Source: a virus. From it: 44,857 nt of DNA. Location: the UHGV virus genome UHGV-0186980, one strand, 5' to 3'. The position numbers were made by a program, and so were the translations under genes. Below, piece after piece: positions 12,288-43,165 of the stretch; within the stretch, counting starts at the first letter, position 1, and the number at the start of each line of letters is the position of its first letter. The notes under the pieces were generated by a model. The model saw only the letters and a program-made list of their open reading frames with translations. It did not search any database and was not told the DNA's origin.

Positions 12288-12746
12288 TTATGCCCCGCTG
12301 CTGTTGGCAGTGCCCCAGGTGATTTTGTTCTGCTTTCCCTGCACGGTGATCTGAATGACCTCACTCGCCGGAGCGGTGATTTCGTTCATCTGCCAGCCGG
12401 ACAGCGCCAGCAACATCGTCGCCGTCCGCTTGTTCGGTAGTTCAACATACAGCTGGATAGTTTCTCGGGCTTCCGCTGCGTTAAGCAGAGCGGCAAAATC
12501 CGTATTGCTCGGATCATCAATAAAACCCAGCGACTTTTCAGGCCCGTCAGGCAGATCACTGATGGATTGTTTCTGCTTATCAAGCAGCGTAGTGCAGTCG
12601 ACAAAACCTCCCGTCTGCCCCATTGCGCCCAGCGCTTTACAGTTAACCAGCGGCTTCAGAGCCGATGCTGCAGCGCCGGGTTCCCCGTATTTTACGATGG
12701 TGCCAGCAGGCAACATCGCATATTCAGGCGAACTCTTATCAGCCAT
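12288..12746 (-). CDS. Major tail protein (V-position, HK97-like tail tube subunit)
   Basis: 152 aa, position upstream of G/T; no motif recognised. Confidence 0.5.
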   Translation of the reverse strand: MADKSSPEYAMLPAGTIVKYGEPGAAASALKPLVNCKALGAMGQTGGFVDCTTLLDKQKQSISDLPDGPEKSLGFIDDPSNTDFAALLNAAEARETIQLYVELPNKRTATMLLALSGWQMNEITAPASEVIQITVQGKQNKITWGTANSSGA

Positions 12747-14565: not shown

Positions 14566-15858
14566 TTAAAACAGCACTTTAGTCCCGAGTACAAGCCCTT
14601 CAGGATGGCGGAAGCCAATGTCGTGTTCAGTAATAACTCGGATCAGAGACTGGTTGCGGGAGAACGCTGACACCAGATTGCCATCGGCGTCGATATAAGA
14701 GGCCTCTTTCGAGAAATCGACCTTCATATTGCCGTCTTCACCAATAACCACGTCATTGAAGTCGGCAAAGTAGATCTCGGACTCCTTACCGCCGGTACCC
14801 AGATTGGCAGGAATAGCGCTGGTACGCTGAATCGGGTAGCCCTTCAGCATGCTCTGTGGCCCCTGGGACATTTCCGGATAGACTTTGTTACCGTTGCCAT
14901 CACGCAGGCCGTACAGCTTCATGTAAGTACGGTTAGACATGCCCCAGCCGCAGCTGATCATGTTGCTGTTACCGTCCATTGCCATCAGGATGATCTTATC
15001 GAGATACTCATCAATCGTGTTCAGATTGATTTCAGCAGCTTCCCACGGCAGCAGGCGGTTCCATTCGGTTGCCCGCGCCTTCATACCCGTCGGCGTATCG
15101 CCGGTACCGTCATCACGCATGAACGCCTTATCTTCGCGAACAGAAATGGCGGTCAGAATATCTTGCAGGACCAGTTGCTCAACGTTAAACCCGGCACGCC
15201 CAATCAGCTGGTTAGAGATTGGCACCATCGCAATCATGGTTTTTGCCGTCAGTTTCACATCATCAAAGCGCGCTTCCGACACTTTGGCATCTTTGTTTTC
15301 GCCGGTATAACTTGCCGTTGCACCACCGGCCAGGCGCGGCAGCGCCATATTGCCATTAGGCAACGGAATGGAGCGGGCACCCAGCTTACGGATGATGGTA
15401 CGGTCACGCAGTAGCTCAATCACTTCGCTGTGCAGGTTCTGCGGGATGAGAACTCCGCCAGATGATGCGGCAGTGGAGATGGCCATCGATACAGATGGGT
15501 CATTCAGTTCTTCTGCGGCAAACGTTGCCGCGTCCTGCAGATTGCCCGCCCCCGCTGCAACGGCCATGACAAGACGAGTCATCCCGGCACCGGTATATTG
15601 CTTCGGCTCCTGCTTCACAACAATGCCCGGAGCCTGCTGTGTAGCTTTAACCGGTTTCGCAACCACCGCTGCGGCACGTTCAGCAGCTTCCAGTCGTTCC
15701 ATTTTGGCGCTGATATCGCTGAACTGCTGCTGCAGACCAGCAAACTCTGTCAGCTGCTCCGCTGTCAGCGTACCGCCATTCGCTTCAATCGTGGCCAGTG
15801 CCTGGACTTGTTCGTTAATACCCGCACGCTGACGACGCAATTCTTCAATCTGTGGCAT
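14566..15858 (-). CDS. Major capsid protein, HK97 fold, with N-terminal coiled-coil delta domain
   Basis: 430 aa; N-terminal 100 aa coiled coil (QIEELRRQRAGINEQ...), typical HK97-type MCP organisation. Confidence 0.8.
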   Translation of the reverse strand: MPQIEELRRQRAGINEQVQALATIEANGGTLTAEQLTEFAGLQQQFSDISAKMERLEAAERAAAVVAKPVKATQQAPGIVVKQEPKQYTGAGMTRLVMAVAAGAGNLQDAATFAAEELNDPSVSMAISTAASSGGVLIPQNLHSEVIELLRDRTIIRKLGARSIPLPNGNMALPRLAGGATASYTGENKDAKVSEARFDDVKLTAKTMIAMVPISNQLIGRAGFNVEQLVLQDILTAISVREDKAFMRDDGTGDTPTGMKARATEWNRLLPWEAAEINLNTIDEYLDKIILMAMDGNSNMISCGWGMSNRTYMKLYGLRDGNGNKVYPEMSQGPQSMLKGYPIQRTSAIPANLGTGGKESEIYFADFNDVVIGEDGNMKVDFSKEASYIDADGNLVSAFSRNQSLIRVITEHDIGFRHPEGLVLGTKVLF

Positions 15859-15932: not shown

Positions 15933-16853
15933 TTACATTCTGGTTTGCAGGTCCATCGCTGCCGCCTGCAGCTTGATGGAACCGGCTTTTTGAGGCGTTT
16001 TGTACTTCGCCGCAATAGCATTGATCGCCGACTGAGGGTCTGAAACTTCATCGGCCAGACCGGCAGAAATAGCACTGGCACCGAAAAAAGTCCCTGCCTG
16101 TGTGCCAATAACGGCCTGTAAATCTAAATCTCGATATTCAGCAACCGAAGTCGTGAATGTCTGGTACATATCGTCAAGTATCTTGTCGTACATTGCGAGA
16201 GAGGCTTCACTCAGTGGCTCATGAGAAGTACCGTTATTTTTGTTATCTCCACGATACATGGAGGTAAATTTTACACCGATATTCTCTTCCATTTTCGATG
16301 TATCCAGGTGTTCCATTATCACCCCGATAGACCCCACGCCGCTGGTCTGGCTAATAACGATTTTATTGCAGGCAGAGGCAATAAAATAAGCCGCTGAAAA
16401 CGCGTTGAAGTTAACAATCGCGGTAATGGATTTCGTCTCTCGCGACTGATAGATGTAATCTGCCAGTTCTTTACACCCGGAGGCGTAACCCCCACCGGAA
16501 TTTATATCCAGCACGATTTCGCTGATGGATGAATCGTTTAACGCCGCGTGCAACTGACTGCGAATACGCTCATAGCTGGTTAGCTCCGTACAGGCTTGCG
16601 TTATTTGTCCCCGACGCGGCACCAGTAATCCATGTACAGGAATAACAGCCACGCCACCGGCTGGCTGGACCTGCTCAGGAGTCGGGGTGCCATCCGGATT
16701 GAGTGCCATCGTGAAAACCGGGTCCGTCACTGTTCCCTGAATGCGCGGGAGCAACACGGCCTTTACGGCATCCATCGTTTGCTGCGTGACGTAATGCGGG
16801 ACGCCAAACACTTGGGCGGTAAGATGCGGCAGATTTAGGTTTGTGATATTCAT
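15933..16853 (-). CDS. Prohead maturation protease (ClpP/S49-like serine protease)
   Basis: DINSGGGYASG motif and position between portal and capsid genes. Confidence 0.7.
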   Translation of the reverse strand: MNITNLNLPHLTAQVFGVPHYVTQQTMDAVKAVLLPRIQGTVTDPVFTMALNPDGTPTPEQVQPAGGVAVIPVHGLLVPRRGQITQACTELTSYERIRSQLHAALNDSSISEIVLDINSGGGYASGCKELADYIYQSRETKSITAIVNFNAFSAAYFIASACNKIVISQTSGVGSIGVIMEHLDTSKMEENIGVKFTSMYRGDNKNNGTSHEPLSEASLAMYDKILDDMYQTFTTSVAEYRDLDLQAVIGTQAGTFFGASAISAGLADEVSDPQSAINAIAAKYKTPQKAGSIKLQAAAMDLQTRM

Positions 16854-16864
16854 GAGTTTTGCCT

Positions 16865-16890
16865 ATAAAAAAACCCGCTTTCGCGGGTTT
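16865..16890 (-). terminator. Intrinsic terminator (AAACCCGC-TTTC-GCGGGTTT) downstream of the 115-aa moron
   Basis: 8-bp stem with 7-A run on plus strand (U-run for minus-strand transcripts). Confidence 0.6.
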
Positions 16891-16913
16891 AATAGATATC
16901 GGAGGTGAGGCGC

Positions 16914-17261
16914 TTATTCTATAGAGGTAGATTGTCGTCCTGTGAGAGTGAACTCTACATTCACATCGTCGAAGCCCCTCGAATCTTTCCTGGGATAGTC
17001 CATTTCTTTGCAAAACATTTTGAAGCCAAGCTGAGCAAAGTTTTTTTCCTGTTCTGCTGGAAAATATTCGGAGAAAGATACAGCAAGGCACTCGTGATTT
17101 TTGAACTTCGTCCGCTCGACGGGCCATCCTACACTCTTGCAACGCCGGGTGAGATCTTCTTCATCGGCACCCAGCAGAAATACTCTAAATGCCACCTGGC
17201 TGTATGTTCTAATACTGCCAGTCGGCTTCATTGGCTGATTAGGATCATAATTTGAGAACAT
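16914..17261 (-). CDS. Hypothetical 115-aa moron inside head-gene module
   Basis: AT-rich insert between portal and protease with its own terminator; no family recognised. Confidence 0.55.
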   Translation of the reverse strand: MFSNYDPNQPMKPTGSIRTYSQVAFRVFLLGADEEDLTRRCKSVGWPVERTKFKNHECLAVSFSEYFPAEQEKNFAQLGFKMFCKEMDYPRKDSRGFDDVNVEFTLTGRQSTSIE

Positions 17262-17353
17262 TTTTGCACCTGAAATGGCCTATGAATTATGCAGGTATAT
17301 TATCACTAAAATTGATGAAAGGGTGCCTGTAGCCAGCAAGACAACCACCTTAA

Positions 17354-18616
17354 TTAACGAGCCAGAATCGCTTCAATCTTAGCCAGTTGTTTTGCCGTCG
17401 GAATTTTATCGCCTGGCAGGATTTGATTGCTGTCGACCATGTTCAGTGGTGTCAGATATCTGTCCCCGCCCTCAATCGGCGGCAGGTTTTCCATGCGGCG
17501 AATATCGTTGGTCGATAACCAGCCCCACTGACGACCCAGCGCATATGACTCATAGCGCGATTTCTGGTCGCCACGCAGTAAGCCGGAAACGTTGAATTCG
17601 ATATACAAGTCGCGGCGTTCGCTGGCCAGCAATAAATCACGCTGCAGTGCCCCTTCATGGCGTTTCAGCCAGGCGAGGAGCGTATACATCACGAACTGCA
17701 GACCCTGATGCTCGATGTTGTTATTGGTCGCTTTCGCAAGCATTTGCACCATGTGTGGCGGGATTTTGTAGAGCCGACACACTTCCTCCACGCCCCACTG
17801 GCGCGATTGCAGCAGCTGTGCTTTCTCGTTGTCCTGCGACATCTGCTTGTAGCTCATTCCTTCTTGCAGCAGCGCCACAGAAAAGGCATTACGCATACCA
17901 GAATATCGGTCAGTCCATTTAGCCAGTAGCTGGTCTATCTTCTCCTGGCTCTTGATTGCCGGGGCGGCCTGTGGACGCTCGATAACGCCGCTCATCGTTG
18001 TTCCGCGCCGGAATGTGGCAGATGCATGCTCCTCCACTGCCAGATTCAGCCCGAGTACATCTGCGTTCGTCTGAATCGGTGAACTGCCGATATAGCCATC
18101 CAGAGAAAAGACTTTCACATGGTGCACCATGCGCATCGGTAACGTTTCACCGATGTCCGGGATTTCATAATAGGGCATCCCGTCCGGGCCTTTCAGAACA
18201 ATGACCTTTTTCGGGTTAATTGGGATGAGTTCTTTTGGGTAGCCTCTACCGTCACGGTCGATGATCGAGTAGCAATTGCCCTCCAGCCCCAGCAACCCCT
18301 GCTGCTGCTCAAAGTACTCAAATGAAGTGTCTTTTTTGTTTGGCTGAGAATGAATCAGGTCATAAATCGGGTGGTCTGTCGCACGTTGCCGCCCACCATT
18401 TTTATCTCGTCGATAGAGTTCGACAGGCAGCTGCGCGACGGACTCCGCCAGGAGGGTTACGCACGCACGAACAGCAGAAAGTGCAAGCGCCGTTTCCGGC
18501 GTAATCATGACACCGGCTTTACTGTGACTTGAACGGACACCACCCAGCATTGCTTCCCAGAATCCGCCACCTGATACCGACCGCTTTTTACCTTCAAACA
18601 TCTGGGGAATAAACAT
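17354..18616 (-). CDS. Portal protein (HK97-family)
   Basis: 420 aa, downstream of large terminase. Confidence 0.8.
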   Translation of the reverse strand: MFIPQMFEGKKRSVSGGGFWEAMLGGVRSSHSKAGVMITPETALALSAVRACVTLLAESVAQLPVELYRRDKNGGRQRATDHPIYDLIHSQPNKKDTSFEYFEQQQGLLGLEGNCYSIIDRDGRGYPKELIPINPKKVIVLKGPDGMPYYEIPDIGETLPMRMVHHVKVFSLDGYIGSSPIQTNADVLGLNLAVEEHASATFRRGTTMSGVIERPQAAPAIKSQEKIDQLLAKWTDRYSGMRNAFSVALLQEGMSYKQMSQDNEKAQLLQSRQWGVEEVCRLYKIPPHMVQMLAKATNNNIEHQGLQFVMYTLLAWLKRHEGALQRDLLLASERRDLYIEFNVSGLLRGDQKSRYESYALGRQWGWLSTNDIRRMENLPPIEGGDRYLTPLNMVDSNQILPGDKIPTAKQLAKIEAILAR

Positions 18617-18795
18617 TATTTCTCCCCGCTATTTTTTGCGCTGGCGGATACCGAGCGCGCGATTAAAAAAGACCAAAGCAGACAGAGTATTCCGCCTGTG
18701 ATAAACCCCGCTGCAGGTAATAAAAGCCAGGCTCCGGTAGAAACCAATAAAGCCCCGGCAAGGCCAATAATGAAACTCAGAATTGTGATTAGCAC
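18616..18795 (-). CDS. Possible small membrane protein (59 aa, GTG start), translationally coupled between terminase and portal
   Basis: GTG overlapping terminase 3' end; product VLITILSFIIGLAGALLVSTGAWLLLPAAGFITGGILCLLWSFLIARSVSASAKNSGEK; TAATG overlap with portal start; below track length threshold. Confidence 0.3.
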   Translation of the reverse strand: MLITILSFIIGLAGALLVSTGAWLLLPAAGFITGGILCLLWSFLIARSVSASAKNSGEK

Positions 18796-20510
18796 GCTAC
18801 GTCTTCCTCATCATAGATAGATTTGATGACTGCGCTGTTCAACATGGCGCGCCCTATCCCCATCATTAAACCAACCGCACCATCAATCTTGTTTTGTTTC
18901 CCCTCCTTTGTCGGACGGACAATATCGTCGCTGCCCGGCAAATACCGACCTACAACGTTCTGGATGCACCAGTTCATGATGGGATTTCCGTCATGATGGA
19001 ATCGCCCCGACGCCAGTGCAGCTTCAATCTCTCTCATGGGGTCGCTCATATGGGTGAAGTTCTGTCTGATTTCGACGGGTTCCAGTCCCTCTTCCTCAAG
19101 CAGATGGCGCAAGGAAGTGGCACCATAAGGATCGATAGGACACTGGGCGATTTTCACGTTCTGACGTAACTGCAGGATGGATTCGAAAATCAGCCGATAA
19201 TCTACTTCTGCGCCCTCAGTTGGAATTAAAACGCCCTGTCCCACAAAGGACTGATAACGTTCAGAGGTATGCTTAAGCTTCGGGTCGACAGAATAGATGG
19301 TGTCTTCAGGCACCCAGAACATAGGGCCTACGCAGTAGAAATGGGTAATACCTTCTATATCGCGACGAAAAACAGGAATAACGGCGTTAAGATCGACCTT
19401 TGACGCTAGATCTATTCCCAGCCAGCATTCCTCATCGGCAAAATCAGACAATTTCAGACTCTTGTCAGCAGCAGCCATCCATTTCTGTAAATCGTAAAAG
19501 ACTGTTTTTGCGCTAACCCAACGATTAAAATGCTTGGTCAGGATCTTGTTGGTCTGACTGGGGTTCGATATCGCCAGTAACTGTTTTGCGCGAAGAAAGT
19601 GCTCTTTTACCGATATCCCATAATTGGGATTGGCTTTAATGAGCGCTTCCGGCTGAGTCCAGTCATCATCATCATCCAGACCATAGATGATGCCGAAAAT
19701 GCCCTCATTCTCTTCCCCATTGCGGGTTTTGCGCAGGATCTCCACCACCTGTTCCCGCTTCTCATAGCACGGCGATGTAATGTCATAACCGGCTGTCGTG
19801 ATGATGAGCGTAATGGGTTGCTCGCGAGCCCCCATCCCTGTCGTCATCGTGGTATACAGGGCATCGGTAATATGTTCGTGGTATTCGTCGATAATGGCGC
19901 ATGACGGCGAATCACCGTCACCGGGATCGCCAATCACGGGTGCAAATATGGAGCCATCCGGGCGAGTCATTTTTTTTGCCCAGGGCTTTATAGAAAATTT
20001 CTGCCGCAATGCGGGCAGCTTTTTCACCATCAACAACGCCGGAGCAAACACTTTCCAGGCCTGCTTTTCGGTCGTGGCGCCGCAGTACACTTCCGCACCA
20101 TGTTCACCGTCAGCGCAGAACATATAATTGCCAACGGCAGCGGCAATTGCTGATTTGCCGTTCTTTCTAGGAACTTCGATATAGATCTCAGTGAACCGCC
20201 GCAGGCCACTTTTTTTATTTACCCAGCCAAACGGAACACCCAGGGCAAACTTTTGCCAGGGTTCAAATTCTATCCTGAGTTTTCGGCGGGCCCATTCCCC
20301 TGCGGTATGTGGCATTTTTTGTGCAAAACGAAGAAATCGCTCTGCCTTATTTTTATCGAACCGGTAAGGCCAGTTCGGATCCTTCGCGCGTTCCAGGTCA
20401 TCAAGATGTCGCTTGCAGGCAAGAATAGTTAACTGACATGCCAGAATCTTCCCGCCAACGATATCCCGTGCATACTGGTTCGCCGCATTGACGTTCGGAT
20501 ATGTGGCCAT
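18789..20510 (-). CDS. Terminase large subunit
   Basis: 573 aa; ATPase N-terminal region and nuclease C-terminal region; upstream of portal. Confidence 0.85.
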   Translation of the reverse strand: MATYPNVNAANQYARDIVGGKILACQLTILACKRHLDDLERAKDPNWPYRFDKNKAERFLRFAQKMPHTAGEWARRKLRIEFEPWQKFALGVPFGWVNKKSGLRRFTEIYIEVPRKNGKSAIAAAVGNYMFCADGEHGAEVYCGATTEKQAWKVFAPALLMVKKLPALRQKFSIKPWAKKMTRPDGSIFAPVIGDPGDGDSPSCAIIDEYHEHITDALYTTMTTGMGAREQPITLIITTAGYDITSPCYEKREQVVEILRKTRNGEENEGIFGIIYGLDDDDDWTQPEALIKANPNYGISVKEHFLRAKQLLAISNPSQTNKILTKHFNRWVSAKTVFYDLQKWMAAADKSLKLSDFADEECWLGIDLASKVDLNAVIPVFRRDIEGITHFYCVGPMFWVPEDTIYSVDPKLKHTSERYQSFVGQGVLIPTEGAEVDYRLIFESILQLRQNVKIAQCPIDPYGATSLRHLLEEEGLEPVEIRQNFTHMSDPMREIEAALASGRFHHDGNPIMNWCIQNVVGRYLPGSDDIVRPTKEGKQNKIDGAVGLMMGIGRAMLNSAVIKSIYDEEDVAC

Positions 20511-20944
20511 CAGTCAAACTCATCAAATTCATTCCCGTCATCGTCCTGATCATTTTTGCCGCTGGTCATTCGGATACGGCTGAGCGGATCTAACCCCAGT
20601 AGCGAGCCCAGACGGGCTATCTGGGAAACAGAGTCATTTCTGACGTTTACGGCAGGATGTTTTTTTAACCCTCCCATTTCGCTTTCAGTTGTCAGCCCGT
20701 TAGCCAGTAATTTTTCGGCTTCGAGCATCAGATGGAAGGCGTTGCAGTAAGCCAGAAGTAAAGGGGCATCTTCAAGCTCAAAAACGCCTCTTTCGATCAG
20801 GATTTTACTTTGAGTCTTCCATATTCTTATAGCCGCCTCCCCCATCAACTCAGCCGGGGGCGCGATTCGGGTCAGTTTACTTTTTTGCCCGGTGGGTAAA
20901 ACGGGTTTTCTTCCCCCTCCAGACGATCTAATACCAGCAGCCAT
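20510..20944 (-). CDS. Terminase small subunit (P27-like)
   Basis: 144 aa, acidic C-terminus, overlaps TerL start (ATGA). Confidence 0.6.
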   Translation of the reverse strand: MAAGIRSSGGGRKPVLPTGQKSKLTRIAPPAELMGEAAIRIWKTQSKILIERGVFELEDAPLLLAYCNAFHLMLEAEKLLANGLTTESEMGGLKKHPAVNVRNDSVSQIARLGSLLGLDPLSRIRMTSGKNDQDDDGNEFDEFD

Positions 20945-22556: not shown

Positions 22557-22730
22557 CATGTGGCATCACGAATACAAAAAGCCCCGCAGATGCGAGGCTA
22601 CTGGTTATACATCAGGGTGTTATTGATAGAGAGCAGCGTGTAAGGTTATCGCTCAGCCGCCTGTGGTGGGACACAGGTAGATATTGTAATTGCAGAGGGA
22701 TAGCTGATTAGCTCTGCTTAAGGAATAGAA

Positions 22731-22931
22731 ATGATTAAAAAGAATATGCACCTTCAAATGGAATCAAATGCCCAAACAATCGACGAATTGAACAAAGAAA
22801 TTGGGCAACTGAAATGTGTCGTTGGTTTCTTAATGACTCAATTACCACCGCAATCTAGGCAGGCTGTCATCAATAATCTTGAGGAGTTTGGACTTGATGA
22901 GTCAGTTAAGGAATTTACTCAGTTCCTTTGA
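22731..22931 (+). CDS. Hypothetical 66-aa protein
   Basis: ATG with AAGGAA RBS; AT-rich accessory region. Confidence 0.4.
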   Translation: MIKKNMHLQMESNAQTIDELNKEIGQLKCVVGFLMTQLPPQSRQAVINNLEEFGLDESVKEFTQFL

Positions 22932-23315
22932 ACAAGGCTTGACCTAATAAATTAATGTACCAGCCTTGAGAATTTTTGGGTTGTGTCCCAGGCGAAGTAG
23001 TGGACTCGCTTCCTTCGCCTGAAACATTTTTTGGGTTTGAAGTTTTGACGTTCAACGTTTTCAAGTTATTCCTCCTTATTACGATCCCCGCTAAGTGATA
23101 CAGACAGATTTATCCCTTGGTAGGGATAGATGTTCTCACCGATTCGTAAATCCGCTCACAGGTCATTCCTGCTTTGTAGCGTTCGTCTGCAATTGCAGCA
23201 TACGCCACGGGGATTAACTACTTATGTCTAACAATCGACAGTCTCATTGTTACAGCCATTAAAAAAACCACCCATGTGGAGTGCCCCCCGAAATGTGGCC
23301 TATCTGATCGCTATG

Positions 23316-23445
23316 AAAAAGGCCGCAAAAGAGATGCGGCCTTTTGTCATGCACAGTTATCGATTAAATAAACTCTCAGGAGCCATCCGGGAGAGCATCA
23401 CTTAAACGGGTAACTGACCTCCGACAGACTGGTGTTGGGACGGAG
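23316..23445. repeat. Imperfect direct repeat copy 1 (~130 bp) containing terminator-like hairpin GGCCGCAAAAGAGATGCGGCC and CTCTCAGGAGCCATCCGGGAGAG
   Basis: Blocks shared with 24610-24740: AAAAAGGCCGCAAAA..ATGCG.CCTTT, CTCTCAGGAGCCA.CCGGGAGAG, TAACTGACC. Confidence 0.55.
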
Positions 23446-23790
23446 GTGCAATGAGAGTAGTGTGTTTCATTTTTTTTCATACCAGCAAACACAAAATAAT
23501 GGCAGTTCTTCCTGTTAATCGATAACTGCTATTCAATTAGTCTGGCCAGACGGATGATTATCCTGCCAGGAGTTATCACACTCACACAATGAAAATCTTT
23601 AAAAAAAATCCTTAGCCGGTTCACTCGCCTTCGAACAGGTGCAATGACCTTGCTCTGACGAAATTAGCTTTAATCGTTCGTTGCCATCTTCCGTACAAAC
23701 AAAATAGTCACAAAAAAATAAAGGTTAAAAAGTGAGCTATTTACTGTCCTGTGGTGTATGGTTAGCAATCACTCACGAGGATAAAAACCA

Positions 23791-23961
23791 TGGCGATGCT
23801 CAAAGACAAGATACGTACACTCAGACCTGTAAAAAGCACCTGTCCTCACTGCTCTCGCCAGTCAACACATAGCCTGTCGAGAATAAAAAACGATATAACA
23901 TTGATCTGCCCATACTGCGGAAATATTTTCCTCCCCTCAGAAAGTAAACCTGTTAAGTAAC
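23791..23961 (+). CDS. Small zinc-ribbon protein (CX2C-x18-CX2C), 56 aa
   Basis: MAMLKDKIRTLRPVKSTCPHCSRQ...LICPYCGNIF; GAGGA RBS 8 nt upstream. Confidence 0.45.
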
Positions 23962-24203
23962 TGATCGAATACTTTACTGAAGCTGAAGTCCACTCTCAGG
24001 CTTCAGTAAACGAAACGACTTAGCAATCAGCGTCAGGACGCGCTACAGCCTGTATCCAGCAGACCGCAAAAATAACGGCTCACTCCTTTCAGGCGATTCA
24101 TTCGCTCAAAATCACCAGGAGTTAACATGCTTCTTCTCCTGCTTCTGATAATCAAAAAACCGCAAATGCGAGGTTTATTTGGTAAATATTGGTTTACCTG
24201 AAC

Positions 24204-24473
24204 CTAGGAATAATAGGCTGCGAAATGCTCCTCAACCTGCGCCCTTGTGTCTGCGCTCTCGTTTAATGTCAATGAGTCATAACCCTTAATGTGAAAAACA
24301 GGTTCATATGCATAAACAGTAATCAATGCGTAAATTGCATTGTCAGTACCAGAAAAAATCTCATATTTCACACGCGACAGGCGCTTATGTTCATTAACTA
24401 ACATGTATGTTTCGATAAGCTTATGAGTAACCACGTTTTTTCCTTCATGACAAAAAAATCCCCTTTTAACCAT
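24204..24473 (-). CDS. Hypothetical 89-aa protein
   Basis: ORF in AT-rich cassette; no motif recognised. Confidence 0.4.
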   Translation of the reverse strand: MVKRGFFCHEGKNVVTHKLIETYMLVNEHKRLSRVKYEIFSGTDNAIYALITVYAYEPVFHIKGYDSLTLNESADTRAQVEEHFAAYYS

Positions 24474-24609
24474 ACGCGTTAGGAGCTAAGAATTGAAATT
24501 ATTAGCATTATCGAAGCCACTCGGCAGAATGGTCTCTGTGATGCATTTGCATTTGCATTTATCTTTGCCATGCGTACAAGCAAAATGGTGGCCTTACGGA
24601 TGCCTGTTA

Positions 24610-24740
24610 CGCACAATAAAAAAGGCCGCAAAAAAATGCGACCTTTGGTTAGTACCAGTTAGAAAACTAAAATCTCTCAGGAGCCACCCGGGAGAGGCTT
24701 TTCTGTTTTTTAACTGACCACTGCCGTTTCGGTGTTGACT
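24610..24740. repeat. Imperfect direct repeat copy 2 (~130 bp)
   Basis: See copy 1 at 23316-23445. Confidence 0.55.
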
Positions 24741-24918
24741 GGCAGTGATAACGTGATGATAGCTTCATTTAAGTTATCGATATCATTTAAATATCTAAAG
24801 AACTATTTAAACCAATAATTCTCAACTCGCCGGAACATTCAACCATAGAAACAGGTTTCTATGCTGGTCTTTTGATGGTAAGCATCAATTCACCACAACC
24901 AGCTTAGTTGCTAATAAA

Positions 24919-25131
24919 TTATTCGGGGGTACCTTCAACGTTGAACCATAGATCTAAATGTTTAATGTAGCGCTGGATGGACACACAAATAACCACTCCA
25001 TCTTTAAGGTTAACAGACTTAATAACACATCCTTTCGGTGCAAAATACTCCCCATCATAATGGGGGCGAATGGAATGCTCGTCTCCGTAACGATAACCGT
25101 GCGGAAGTTGAGGGAGTGAATTTCTTGTCAT
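24919..25131 (-). CDS. Hypothetical 70-aa protein downstream of spanin genes
   Basis: ORF directly downstream of lysis cassette; no motif recognised. Confidence 0.4.
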   Translation of the reverse strand: MTRNSLPQLPHGYRYGDEHSIRPHYDGEYFAPKGCVIKSVNLKDGVVICVSIQRYIKHLDLWFNVEGTPE

Positions 25132-25298
25132 GGGCAGCTTCTTAGATAAAAGGAATTTGAAAATCCATAGTGCATTAGCAACCTTGACTTAGATACCAAC
25201 TTTTCATTGTTTACTGCTCTAATATCTCGTTTTCAGATTTTTTGTTCATACGATGATTTAAATATCAATACCTTAAGCGTGCGACATTTATATCTGAT

Positions 25299-25529
25299 TT
25301 ATCTTGCTCCCTTCTCTGTAAGCTGCGGGCAGTTGGCCTGCACGGATTTGTTGTACGCCAAGATGTCGCGCTTCGTCTGCTTATCCAGCACGTCAATATC
25401 GCGGTCAGTGAGATAGATAATTTTCGCCCACAGGCACCCTGTATCAACGACCACCGGGGCGGGTGAATTGCTCGCGCAGCTCACGATCAACATCGTCATC
25501 AGGCATATGGCTAACAGTCTGCTGTACAT
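25299..25529 (-). CDS. o-spanin (Rz1-like outer-membrane lipoprotein), overlapping the 3' end of the i-spanin gene
   Basis: MYSRLLAICLMTMLIVSCAS lipobox; alternate frame overlapping Rz-like gene. Confidence 0.6.
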   Translation of the reverse strand: MYSRLLAICLMTMLIVSCASNSPAPVVVDTGCLWAKIIYLTDRDIDVLDKQTKRDILAYNKSVQANCPQLTEKGAR

Positions 25530-37036: not shown

Positions 37037-37732
37037 ATGAACATCGGAAAGCGAATCAGAGAACTACGCCTTGCAAAGGGCTTAAAAATAAACGACCTGG
37101 CTGATGCTTTGGGCATTGATGGCGCCAATATTTCTCGCATGGAAACAGGTAAACAGAAATCATTTACCGAACAATCCCTTAATCTTTATGCAAAGGCATT
37201 AGGCGTAGAAGTTGCTGAGCTCTTTACACCTCCCCAAAATGAAATTACTGTATATAATAACAGTATAAAACATCCAGTTCATGGAGAGGGTAGCTCGGTG
37301 TTTAGAGTGGAAATGCTTGATGTCAGTGCGAGCGCTGGTGGTGGATTTATTCAGGGCAGTGATGTTATTGATGTCATAAGGTCTATTGAATACAACAACG
37401 ACCAAGCCATGACTTTATTCGGTGGCAGAACACCAGACTCAGTGAAGGTCATTAACGTTCGGGGCGACAGCATGGCTGACACTATTCAGCCTGGAGATTT
37501 GATTTTCGTCGATGTTTCAGTCAATAGCTTTGATGGCGATGGCATCTACGTCTTTGGTTTCGATGGCAAAATATATGTTAAGCGCCTGCAAATGATACCA
37601 GATAAAATGCTCGTGATTTCTGATAATCCAAAATACAGAGAATGGGAAATCGATCGGGCTAATGAATACCGCTTTTGCGTTTATGGCAAAGTAATGATCA
37701 GCCAGTCACAAGCCTTCAAGCGCCACGGCTAA
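37037..37732 (+). CDS. cI: CI repressor (HTH + S24 LexA-like autopeptidase domain)
   Basis: N-terminal HTH; C-terminal GDSM Ser and VKR Lys motifs. Confidence 0.85.
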   Translation: MNIGKRIRELRLAKGLKINDLADALGIDGANISRMETGKQKSFTEQSLNLYAKALGVEVAELFTPPQNEITVYNNSIKHPVHGEGSSVFRVEMLDVSASAGGGFIQGSDVIDVIRSIEYNNDQAMTLFGGRTPDSVKVINVRGDSMADTIQPGDLIFVDVSVNSFDGDGIYVFGFDGKIYVKRLQMIPDKMLVISDNPKYREWEIDRANEYRFCVYGKVMISQSQAFKRHG

Positions 37733-41983: not shown

Positions 41984-43165
41984 ATGGCAGCAAGGCCAAG
42001 AAAAAGGGAATACCGCCATCTACCTGATTATCTAATATTTGATAAAGATCGCGGCGTTTATAAATTCACCTTAATTACAGGGAAGAAAAAGAACATTGGG
42101 AAAGATCGGGCTATAGCCATCGCTATTGCGCGCGAATACAACCTCAGAATGCGGCAGGCAAATGCTCCGTCAGTTGAATTGCTTATCCGTGATTCTGGCG
42201 GCGTGTCGGGTGAAGCTAAACCTTTTGCCGAGCATGTTGATCACATCATGGCGCGTGCGATTGAAAATGAACGTCCGTCGCAAAATACGCTTGATGACTG
42301 GAACAACGACGCACTAAGGGTGAAGGAATTCTTTAGCAACATACCAGCTTGCGATATTGAGCTGGAGCATGTGAACGCCTACATAAAGCATTACCACTCA
42401 GATTCATCAGCGAACGTACAAAACCGGAAGGTCAGCTTCCTTAAAAAATTGTTCTCGTATGCGGTCGATGAATCATTGATGTTTGATAATCCTGCTACAC
42501 GCAAAAAAATGCGAAGAACCGAAGAGAAGAAACGCCAGCGTCTTTCACTCGATAACTTTAAAGCCATTCGTCGGGCCGCCGAACCCTGGTTACGCACCGC
42601 GATGGATTTAGCATTACAGACGACGCACGCTCGCCTTGAAGTGTCTAGGATTCGGTATTCAATTCGTGAACCTAAGAACGGTATTTGTGGTTGTGTATGG
42701 CTCGAACAGCCAGAAGATGGCATATATGGAACGCTTTACATCCATCGTCAAAAGGTACAAAAGAAGGAAGCATCGCACGTTGCGATTCCAATTGGGGATG
42801 AGCTAAAGCGCATAATTGATGAAAGTAGGGATAACGTAGCTAGTCCGTTTGTTGTTCATCGGATTCCGGAGCGACAGGTTAAACGCAGTAAAGAAGTTTC
42901 ACACCCAACTCAAGTTGCGCCTGACTATCTTAGTCGCTCGTTCTCCTCGTTACGCGATGAGCTAGGGCTTTGTGATCATCTTGCGATGGACGAACGCCCT
43001 ACATTTCACGAGATCAGAGCCCTTGCAGCACATTTGTTTAATAGCCAAGGAATCGATCCTCAAGGCAGAATGGCTCACAGTGATGCAAAATCAACAAAGA
43101 TTTATACTCAAAACCACATTGATTGGATCGTCGTTCCACACGGGGAAATTAAATACAATGCATAA
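41984..43165 (+). CDS. int: Tyrosine integrase
   Basis: 393 aa; C-terminal HEIRALAAHL...AHSDAKSTKIYTQNH catalytic region. Confidence 0.9.
   Translation: MAARPRKREYRHLPDYLIFDKDRGVYKFTLITGKKKNIGKDRAIAIAIAREYNLRMRQANAPSVELLIRDSGGVSGEAKPFAEHVDHIMARAIENERPSQNTLDDWNNDALRVKEFFSNIPACDIELEHVNAYIKHYHSDSSANVQNRKVSFLKKLFSYAVDESLMFDNPATRKKMRRTEEKKRQRLSLDNFKAIRRAAEPWLRTAMDLALQTTHARLEVSRIRYSIREPKNGICGCVWLEQPEDGIYGTLYIHRQKVQKKEASHVAIPIGDELKRIIDESRDNVASPFVVHRIPERQVKRSKEVSHPTQVAPDYLSRSFSSLRDELGLCDHLAMDERPTFHEIRALAAHLFNSQGIDPQGRMAHSDAKSTKIYTQNHIDWIVVPHGEIKYNA

What the first reader, a model, noticed from the sequence alone, without database searches (positions are those of the whole stretch)
16865..17353. Independent moron inside the head-gene module between portal and protease
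An AT-rich insert carries a 115-aa ORF (16914..17261) with no recognisable motif, an upstream AT-rich promoter-like region and a strong intrinsic terminator immediately downstream (16865-16890), wedged between two essential co-transcribed head genes. This is the architecture of a lysogeny-expressed moron, often a fitness, exclusion or anti-defence factor.
Basis: partly seen in the sequence, partly recalled or inferred. Interest (0 to 1): 0.5.

Follow-up and report, generated by a model that had tools for sequence, protein, structure and literature searches.

The report
Orphan accessory gene inside prophage head genes
A rare 460-base insertion between the portal and protease genes of a Klebsiella oxytoca lambdoid prophage carries a real, fast-evolving 115-residue protein of unknown function followed by a proper terminator: a textbook 'moron' cassette whose own promoter and function remain unproven.

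Summary
On the minus strand a 115-aa ORF (16914-17261) sits between the portal gene (17354-18616) and the S49 prohead protease gene (15933-16853). An 8-bp GNRA-loop hairpin with a T-run (16890-16864) follows it.

In 84 related head modules the portal-protease spacer is only 35-37 nt. Only K. oxytoca prophages and one Citrobacter lineage carry the 486-501 nt version.

The Citrobacter copy is also 115 aa and 45% identical, in the same slot, so the ORF is a real gene. It evolves 3-25 times faster than its neighbours (dN 0.48).

The last 46-48 nt upstream and the terminator are conserved although synonymous sites are saturated. Empty junctions carry the same CCCGC/GCGGG hairpin without a T-tract, so the terminator form goes with the cargo.

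No sigma-70 consensus promoter is detectable in the window, and expression is untested.

The protein is soluble and mildly acidic, with a low-confidence generic ferredoxin-like model. It matches nothing in Pfam, PHROGs, NCBIfam, PADLOC or PDB, and the family has two lineages in 15 billion proteins.

Verdict: a genuine moron-type accessory cassette, not a structural gene. The function is probably conflict-related but is only inferred. It is a new member of a known kind, of moderate-low interest.

The parts
17354..18616 (-). Portal gene (420 aa), upstream neighbour. Its stop codon TAA (17354-17356) is the left edge of the insertion.
   Evidence: PF04860, E = 9.8e-103. It is 88-95% identical to portals of phiKO2-like Klebsiella phages and prophages.
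17310..17353 (-). Distal part of the upstream intergenic region. It cannot be aligned with the Citrobacter homologous locus.
   Evidence: Pairwise and 3-way alignments.
17262..17309 (-). Conserved proximal upstream block of 46-48 nt. It holds TG-A-TAATAT (17305-17297, extended -10-like), CATAAT (17291-17286) and the Shine-Dalgarno AGGTG (17271-17267). It is a candidate promoter plus 5' UTR.
   Evidence: It is 79% identical to L020, while third codon positions of all neighbouring genes are only 39-62% identical, i.e. saturated. There is no consensus sigma-70 hit in the window. In L020 two candidates score 9.4-9.9.
16914..17261 (-). ORF115: a 115-aa soluble protein, 13.4 kDa, pI 5.9, with no transmembrane segment. 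The predicted core is beta-beta-alpha-beta-beta-alpha.
17041..17047 (-). A7 run inside ORF115 (codons E72-K73-N74). It is the site of a 1-nt deletion in one K. oxytoca genome, which gives a truncated 99-aa product (P0002).
16864..16890 (-). Intrinsic terminator: 8-bp stem AAACCCGC/GCGGGTTT, GAAA tetraloop and T-run. It lies 10 nt upstream of the protease ATG (counted from the end of the T-run).
   Evidence: It is conserved in L020 and L102 with a UUCG loop. The core stem CCCGC/GCGGG sits at the same distance from the protease ATG in 83 of 84 empty junctions, none of which has a T-tract.
15933..16853 (-). S49-family prohead protease gene (306 aa), downstream neighbour.
   Evidence: PF01343, E = 6.6e-31.
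29351..30199 (-). Q-type antiterminator gene, upstream on the same strand. It is context for read-through of the terminators inside the late operon.
   Evidence: PF06323, E = 1.1e-34.

Best explanation
This is a horizontally acquired accessory cassette (a moron). It was inserted into the roughly 9-nt gap between the portal stop codon and a pre-existing junction hairpin of an HK97/phiKO2-type head module, in an integrated lambdoid prophage of Klebsiella oxytoca. It encodes a real, non-structural, soluble 115-aa alpha+beta protein.

During lytic growth the gene is transcribed with the late operon by Q-modified polymerase, which reads through the terminator. The conserved 46-48 nt block upstream of the ATG (extended -10-like TGATAATAT) probably also gives low-level Q-independent transcription. 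The upgraded hairpin plus T-tract then stops that transcription before the protease and capsid genes.

The product most likely acts as a small binding or inhibitor protein in phage-host or phage-phage conflict. Anti-defence or exclusion of competitors is more likely than a membrane-based exclusion factor or an enzyme.

Shown: the insertion, the coding status, the terminator, the constrained upstream block, the rapid protein divergence and the rarity. Inferred: promoter activity, expression in lysogens and the conflict function.
For: Insertion:
- 84 related junctions have a 35-37 nt spacer. 13 have 486-501 nt.
- Portals closer to the window's (94.5%) are empty, while the more distant Citrobacter one (89.5%) is filled. 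The distribution is therefore patchy.

Real gene:
- The homologue is 45% identical, has the same 115-aa length and sits in the same slot.
- Third-position substitutions are in excess, and the antisense frame is closed in the homologue.
- pN 0.36 is below pS 0.78.

Accessory rather than structural:
- dN is 0.48 against 0.02-0.15 for TerL, portal, protease and MCP.
- The protease allele does not co-vary with the insert.

Cis elements under constraint:
- The proximal upstream block is 79% identical and the terminator is conserved, although synonymous sites are saturated.
- The two terminator loops are both stable tetraloops, GAAA and UUCG.
- The T-tract is present only in filled junctions: 0 of 84 empties have one.

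Other points:
- GC is 43.8% against 50-54% in the flanks.
- A Q antiterminator lies upstream on the same strand.
- The protein is soluble, has pI 5.9, has no transmembrane segment, and hits no enzyme or defence family.
- The moron definition is taken from PMC3594210.
Against: - No sigma-70 consensus promoter is detected in 17262-17353. The best PWM score there is matched by 64% of shuffles.
- The -10-like hexamers overlap and none has a conserved -35.
- Intrinsic terminators also follow the capsid and tail-tube genes in the same late operon, so a terminator alone does not prove autonomy.
- The GC deviation is modest (12th percentile).
- There are no expression data and no functional homology of any kind.
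- The structure model is low-confidence (pLDDT 59) and its fold matches are generic.
Confidence: 0.55

Rival explanations
1. Late-operon passenger with no promoter of its own. The gene is expressed only during lytic growth, by Q-antiterminated read-through. It acts then, for example as an anti-defence or host-takeover factor needed during replication and packaging. The hairpin is simply the ancestral junction hairpin, or an mRNA 3'-stabiliser like those after the capsid and tail-tube genes.
For: - No consensus promoter is found in the window.
- The gene has the same orientation as the late operon, downstream of Q.
- Similar terminators follow other late genes.
- The hairpin core pre-exists in 83 of 84 empty junctions.
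Against: - The T-tract and the extended stem occur only where the cargo is present, in both diverged lineages.
- 46-48 nt upstream of the ATG are constrained well beyond the Shine-Dalgarno sequence.
Confidence: 0.3
2. Head-assembly accessory protein. It would modulate or chaperone the portal, the protease or the scaffold, and would be specific to this head-module variant.
For: The only support is its position between the portal and protease genes and its co-orientation with them.
Against: - It is absent from 84 of 97 related head modules, including ones whose portals are 94.5% identical.
- It evolves 3-25 times faster than the structural neighbours.
- The protease allele does not track its presence.
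- It hits no PHROG or Pfam structural family.
Confidence: 0.07
3. A selfish mobile unit that maintains itself at this junction, such as a homing-endonuclease-like gene, a toxin or an addiction gene.
For: The distribution is patchy and the cassette always sits at one precise intergenic site.
Against: - No nuclease, toxin or HTH motif is found in any library.
- There are no terminal inverted repeats or target-site duplications.
- It is very rare: 2 loci in 2.9 million viral contigs.
- In K. oxytoca the near-identity extends about 700 nt into the portal gene and through the protease gene, so the head modules are simply close relatives. There is no sign of an element sweeping across divergent flanks.
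Confidence: 0.05
4. Not a gene: a chance ORF in a non-coding spacer.
For: There is no database family, and a mirror ORF of similar length lies on the plus strand (16905-17255).
Against: - The homologue conserves the length and both termini at 45% identity.
- The substitution pattern shows codon-position bias.
- The mirror ORF has 9 stops in the homologue.
Confidence: 0.02

Closest known systems
HK97 gene 15 moron (Juhala et al. 2000; Cumby et al. 2012, as reviewed in PMC3594210)
   Same: Both are a single small gene added between two late morphogenesis genes that are adjacent in related lambdoid/HK97-type phages. Both differ in base composition from their surroundings and carry their own terminator. 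Both are non-essential for virion assembly.
   Different: gp15 sits in the tail operon. It is an inner-membrane protein with bacterial YebO homologues, and it is shown to be expressed from the prophage and to exclude superinfecting phages. ORF115 sits in the head module. It is soluble, has no bacterial homologues, and has neither a demonstrated promoter nor a demonstrated function.
Anti-CRISPR loci of Pseudomonas Mu-like phages, located between the gene G homologue and the protease/scaffold gene (PMC3993853)
   Same: Both are small, fast-diverging ORFan proteins inserted immediately upstream of the protease/scaffold gene inside the head-gene cluster. In both, a conserved non-coding region lies 5' of the variable cargo.
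   Different: Those loci end with a conserved HTH regulator gene (aca1), often hold several acr genes, and have recognisable -35/-10 boxes. Here there is one gene, no HTH partner, a terminator instead, and no sequence similarity to anything. Anti-CRISPR activity was not tested.
Lambda bor/lom and other late-region lysogenic-conversion genes
   Same: They are accessory genes embedded in, or next to, late structural operons of lambdoid prophages.
   Different: They encode envelope proteins with signal sequences, known homologues and known phenotypes. ORF115 has no signal peptide or transmembrane segment.
The 59-aa membrane protein between the large terminase and portal genes in the same module (window 18616-18795; phrog_502, PHROG category 'moron, auxiliary metabolic gene and host takeover')
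   Same: It is also a small non-structural gene lodged between essential head and packaging genes of this module.
   Different: It is conserved across phiKO2-like relatives, overlaps its neighbours without a promoter or terminator of its own, and is a membrane protein. It is an old resident rather than a recent insertion.

Membership tests
Moron (sensu Juhala et al. 2000; definition as in PMC3594210) | Extra DNA between two genes that are adjacent in related phages | tested here: met
   84 related junctions have a 35-37 nt spacer. The window has 500 nt.
Moron (sensu Juhala et al. 2000; definition as in PMC3594210) | [quoted passage not shown] | tested here: met
   GC is 43.8% in the insert against 50-54% in the flanks. 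GC3 is 0.46 against 0.53-0.60. The deviation is modest, since 12% of equal-sized windows are as low.
Moron (sensu Juhala et al. 2000; definition as in PMC3594210) | Own transcription terminator | tested here: met
   There is an 8-bp GC-rich stem, a GNRA loop and a T-run at 16890-16864. It is conserved in the Citrobacter lineage. The T-tract is absent from all 84 empty junctions. Termination activity itself was not assayed.
Moron (sensu Juhala et al. 2000; definition as in PMC3594210) | Own promoter | tested here: inconclusive
   No sigma-70 consensus hit is found in the window, and the PWM score is no better than shuffles. However, a block of 46-48 nt is constrained and contains TGnTAAyAT. L020 has two candidate promoters.
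Moron (sensu Juhala et al. 2000; definition as in PMC3594210) | Expression from the repressed prophage | not testable with these tools
   This needs RNA-seq, 5'-RACE or reporter assays in lysogens.
Head structural or assembly protein of the HK97/phiKO2-type module | Conserved presence and position across related head modules | tested here: not met
   It is absent from 84 of 97 related modules. It hits no PHROG or Pfam structural family.
Known anti-phage defence systems (PADLOC-DB v2) | Match to a defence-protein model | tested here: not met
   There are 0 families at E <= 10.
Anti-CRISPR operon (acr-aca architecture) | Adjacent HTH regulator (aca) gene downstream of the small ORF | tested here: not met
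   The ORF is followed directly by the terminator and the protease gene. Neither the ORF nor anything else in the insert has an HTH hit.
Anti-CRISPR operon (acr-aca architecture) | Inhibition of a CRISPR-Cas system, or homology to a known Acr | not testable with these tools
   No Acr library is available. The searches of PDB by sequence and by fold gave nothing specific.
Homing endonuclease or transposable element | Nuclease or transposase motif, terminal repeats or target-site duplication | tested here: not met
   There are no Pfam or NCBIfam hits. Only chance-level short repeats are found.

The most novel reading that the evidence does not exclude
ORF115 would be the founding member of a new family of small ferredoxin-like phage proteins. 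So far the family is confined to two prophage lineages, in K. oxytoca and in Citrobacter farmeri/amalonaticus. The protein would neutralise a host immune system or block competing phages. It would be expressed from a minimal extended -10 promoter, and insulated by a terminator that evolved in situ from the ancestral portal-protease junction hairpin. That would be a documented case of a phage converting a resident RNA hairpin into a moron terminator.
Probability: 0.3. Interest if true: 0.55.

Novelty: new member of a known kind. Interest (0 to 1): 0.3.

Why it matters
Morons are where temperate phages keep exclusion, anti-defence and host-fitness genes. Rapidly evolving ORFans in such slots have repeatedly turned out to be new inhibitors such as anti-CRISPRs, or new exclusion proteins.

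This cassette is a clean and unusually well-delimited example. Its insertion point is defined to within about 10 nt. There are 84 empty sites for comparison and two diverged alleles. There is also a visible change of a resident hairpin into a canonical terminator.

It gives a compact, directly testable candidate for K. oxytoca and Citrobacter phage-host conflict biology. At present, though, it is one more hypothetical prophage gene, and nothing about it would surprise a phage genomicist.

Tried and rejected
- **Remote homology.** Nothing was found in Pfam, PHROGs, PADLOC or NCBIfam, in the PDB by sequence profile, or by tblastn against phages and plasmids. The one phage hit, E = 0.3 in Rhodobacter phage RcKemmy, is chance.
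- **Large protein searches.** The word-index search of 5.8 billion clusters was run with the single sequence and with a profile. The exhaustive phmmer search covered 1.84 billion representatives. Only the two lineages appear.
- **P0004.** This fourth hit (5491 aa) is a repeat-inflated artefact, a 29-aa weak match repeated many times.
- **5' UTR hairpin.** A hairpin ACCUG...CAGGU that would sequester the Shine-Dalgarno sequence is not more stable than shuffles (z = +0.6). Dropped.
- **Programmed frameshift at the A_AAA_AAC run.** The heptamer is not conserved in the Citrobacter allele. The 99-aa variant is a 1-nt deletion in a single genome. Dropped.
- **'Identical insert in divergent flanks' as a sign of a sweep.** On inspection the near-identity extends about 700 nt into the portal gene and through the protease gene. 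The look-up was also by exact protein, so nothing special can be concluded.
- **Transposon signatures.** None were found.
- **Rfam and tRNA scans.** Nothing was found.
- **The plus-strand mirror ORF 16905-17255.** It has 9 stops in the homologue.

Full report
**Context.** The window is an integrated lambdoid prophage.
- On the plus strand it encodes an integrase (41984-43165) and a cI-like S24 repressor (37037-37732).
- On the minus strand it encodes a CII-like protein, two DNA methyltransferases, a Q antiterminator (29351-30199), a holin and endolysin, and an HNH endonuclease.
- An HK97/phiKO2-type late operon follows on the minus strand: small terminase 20510-20944, large terminase 18789-20510, a 59-aa membrane protein 18616-18795, portal 17354-18616, S49 prohead protease 15933-16853 and major capsid protein 14566-15858.
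- The closest deposited phages are the Klebsiella telomere phages of the phiKO2 group. They match only over the portal gene, at 82-89% nucleotide identity.
- Exact-protein look-ups place the locus in chromosomes of Klebsiella oxytoca.

**Check of the observation.**
- The minus-strand ORF 16914-17261 encodes 115 aa and has an AGGTG Shine-Dalgarno sequence 5 nt before the ATG.
- Directly downstream lies AAACCCGC-GAAA-GCGGGTTT followed by TTTTAT (16890-16861). It ranks among the best terminator-like sites of the 19-kb late region and folds at -16.2 kcal/mol, z = -2.5.
- The insert is 43.8% GC against 50-54% for its neighbours. GC3 is 0.46 against 0.53-0.60. Since 12% of equal-sized windows in the prophage are as low, 'AT-rich' is only moderately true.
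- The promoter claim is the weak part. The sigma-70 scan reports nothing in 17262-17353, and a PWM scan gives a best score that 64% of shuffles reach.

**It is an insertion.**
- In phiKO2 and KpLi5 the portal and protease genes are 36 nt apart.
- The same holds in Klebsiella sp. I138, K. pneumoniae ATCC 13883 and Citrobacter werkmanii prophages.
- I measured the spacer in all 97 loci that carry both genes. It is 35-37 nt in 84 of them and 486-501 nt in 13. Twelve of the 13 are K. oxytoca-type and one is from Citrobacter farmeri.
- Empty sites include portals 94.5% identical to the window's. These are closer than the filled Citrobacter locus (89.5%), so the distribution is patchy, as expected for mosaic exchange or repeated loss.
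- No terminal repeats or target duplications flank the insert.

**It is a real gene.**
- The word-index search of 5.8 billion protein clusters and the exhaustive phmmer search of 1.84 billion representatives return only two lineages.
  - One is the K. oxytoca cluster: six near-identical variants, plus a 99-aa product of a 1-nt deletion in an A7 run.
  - The other is a Citrobacter farmeri/amalonaticus cluster (P0003 and three variants).
- P0003 is 45% identical, exactly 115 aa, and is encoded in exactly the same slot between the portal and S49 protease genes.
- Both termini and several internal motifs are conserved: SNxxPNQPMKxTG, CKxxGWxVE, CLxVxFSxYxPAxQEK and VEFxLTGxxSxxIE.
- Substitutions between the two alleles fall 45/39/70 on codon positions 1/2/3. 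The plus-strand mirror ORF (16905-17255) has nine stops in the Citrobacter sequence.
- A scan of 2.9 million IMG/VR contigs with the family profile finds just one locus of each lineage.

**Evolutionary rates and constrained non-coding DNA.**
- Between the window and the Citrobacter locus, synonymous sites are saturated in every gene. Third-position identity is 39-62%.
- dN is 0.02 for TerL, 0.06 for the portal, 0.06 for MCP, 0.15 for the protease and 0.48 for ORF115.
- The protein is therefore under purifying selection (pN 0.36 < pS 0.78) but diverges 3-25 times faster than its structural neighbours.
- Against that background two non-coding pieces stand out as constrained.
  - The first is the 46-48 nt immediately upstream of the ATG (17262-17309), which is 79% identical. 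The distal 44 nt cannot be aligned.
  - The second is the terminator with its flanks.
- The upstream block contains TG-A-TAATAT (TAACAT in Citrobacter), CATAAT (AATAAT) and the Shine-Dalgarno sequence. No conserved -35 is present. If this is a promoter it is of the extended -10 type or is weak.
- In the Citrobacter sequence two candidates reach scores of 9.4-9.9.
- I rate the promoter as plausible but undemonstrated.

**The terminator and the ancestral hairpin.**
- 83 of the 84 empty junctions carry a perfect 5-bp hairpin, usually CCCGC-nnn-GCGGG. It starts a few nucleotides after the portal stop and ends 17-20 nt before the protease ATG. None has a T-tract after it.
- In the filled junctions the same core stem sits at the same distance from the ATG. 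The sequence downstream of it (GGTAAAAAACATG in L020) matches that of the empty sites.
- In the filled junctions the stem is extended by A/T pairs, closed by a stable tetraloop (GAAA here, UUCG in Citrobacter) and followed by a T-run.
- The simplest reading is that the cargo landed between the portal stop codon and a resident hairpin, and that the hairpin then took the form of a canonical intrinsic terminator.
- The terminator form co-occurs with the cargo in both diverged lineages and never occurs without it. This is the best indirect argument that some transcription across ORF115 is not Q-modified and needs to be stopped, in other words that the cassette has its own promoter.
- The argument is weakened because good terminators also follow the capsid gene (14508-14491) and the tail-tube gene (12266-12244) in the same operon. 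There they presumably act on mRNA stability or stoichiometry under Q read-through.

**The protein.**
- It is 13.4 kDa, pI 5.9 (5.5 for the Citrobacter allele) and hydrophilic, with no segment hydrophobic enough for a membrane span.
- AlphaFold2 with the two-sequence alignment gives pLDDT 59. The core, residues about 20-80, reaches 70-80 and has beta-beta-alpha-beta-beta-alpha topology. The N-terminal 16 residues are disordered but conserved.
- I draw no functional conclusion from them beyond 'small alpha+beta domain'.
- There are no hits in Pfam, PHROGs, PADLOC or NCBIfam, or to PDB sequences.

**Interpretation.**
- The cassette meets the sequence-level definition of a moron (PMC3594210) on four counts: extra DNA, deviant composition, own terminator and patchy distribution.
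- It is inconclusive on its own promoter and untestable here on prophage expression.
- It clearly fails the test for a conserved structural component, and its presence does not track a particular protease allele.
- It lies in the late-operon orientation downstream of Q, so it will be transcribed during lytic growth whatever else happens. Whether it is also expressed in lysogens is open.
- Four properties point away from membrane exclusion proteins and enzymatic defence systems, and towards small inhibitor or binder proteins of the anti-defence kind. It is small, soluble and mildly acidic. It is an ORFan confined to two host genera. It diverges fast. It has no enzymatic motif.
- The nearest architectural analogue is the anti-CRISPR locus of Pseudomonas Mu-like phages. 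That locus also sits immediately upstream of the protease/scaffold gene and has a conserved 5' non-coding region with variable cargo (PMC3993853). Here, however, the diagnostic aca HTH gene is absent.
- This functional assignment is inference, and I hold it at roughly 0.3-0.4.

**Verdict.** This is a genuine, well-delimited moron-type accessory cassette carrying a new ORFan protein family. It is a new member of a known kind. Interest is moderate-low.

Noticed in passing
Empty portal-protease junctions, e.g. L001 3910-3945, L014 5267-5303, L016 5261-5296: 83 of 84 insert-free junctions keep a 5-bp GC hairpin (mostly CCCGC-nnn-GCGGG) in the 36-nt spacer. The loops vary, one stem is an alternative (CCGCG/CGCGG in L014), and none has a T-tract. 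This is a conserved RNA or DNA structure of unknown role between the portal and protease genes of phiKO2-like head modules.
   Followed up: partly
window 18616-18795 (-): A 59-aa two-TM-like membrane protein (phrog_502, E = 9e-18, PHROG category 'moron/host takeover') overlaps the end of the large terminase gene and abuts the portal start. Unlike ORF115 it is conserved in phiKO2, KpLi5 and the Citrobacter locus.
   Followed up: partly
window 17041-17047 (-); L013 6001-6300: An A7 run inside ORF115 has lost one A in a single K. oxytoca assembly (GCA_004360035.1), giving a frameshifted 99-aa product (P0002). This is either a sequencing error or an inactivating slippage mutation. The run is not conserved in the Citrobacter allele.
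   Followed up: partly
window 22600-25300: About 2.7 kb between the lysis cassette and the HNH/terminase genes contains no ORF of 90 aa or more on either strand. It holds only small ORFs, no tRNA and no Rfam hit. A good terminator-like hairpin lies at 22599-22580 (-).
   Followed up: no
window 27739-28815 (-), 30070-31128 (-), 31125-33098 (-): The prophage carries an N6/N4 DNA methyltransferase, a DUF968 protein and a 657-aa protein with an N-terminal C5-cytosine methyltransferase domain. They surround the Q antiterminator gene and are probably anti-restriction or epigenetic cargo.
   Followed up: no
window 14508-14491 (-), 12266-12244 (-), 5546-5527 (-): Strong intrinsic-terminator-like hairpins lie directly after the major capsid gene, after the 152-aa gene at 12288-12746 (tail-tube family in the related loci), and at the end of the tail region. 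All are inside or at the end of the Q-dependent late operon.
   Followed up: partly
L015 (NZ_BMZO01000013.1, labelled Limoniibacter endophyticus) and L018 (NZ_BSEJ01000056.1, labelled Microbacterium barkeri): Contigs in assemblies of an alphaproteobacterium and an actinobacterium encode portals 89-94% identical to this Klebsiella prophage portal. The junction in L015 is identical to the K. pneumoniae type. Enterobacterial contamination of those assemblies is the likely cause.
   Followed up: no
window 16905-17255 (+): A 116-aa GTG-initiated ORF mirrors ORF115 on the opposite strand. It is a shadow ORF, with nine stops in the Citrobacter homologue.
   Followed up: yes
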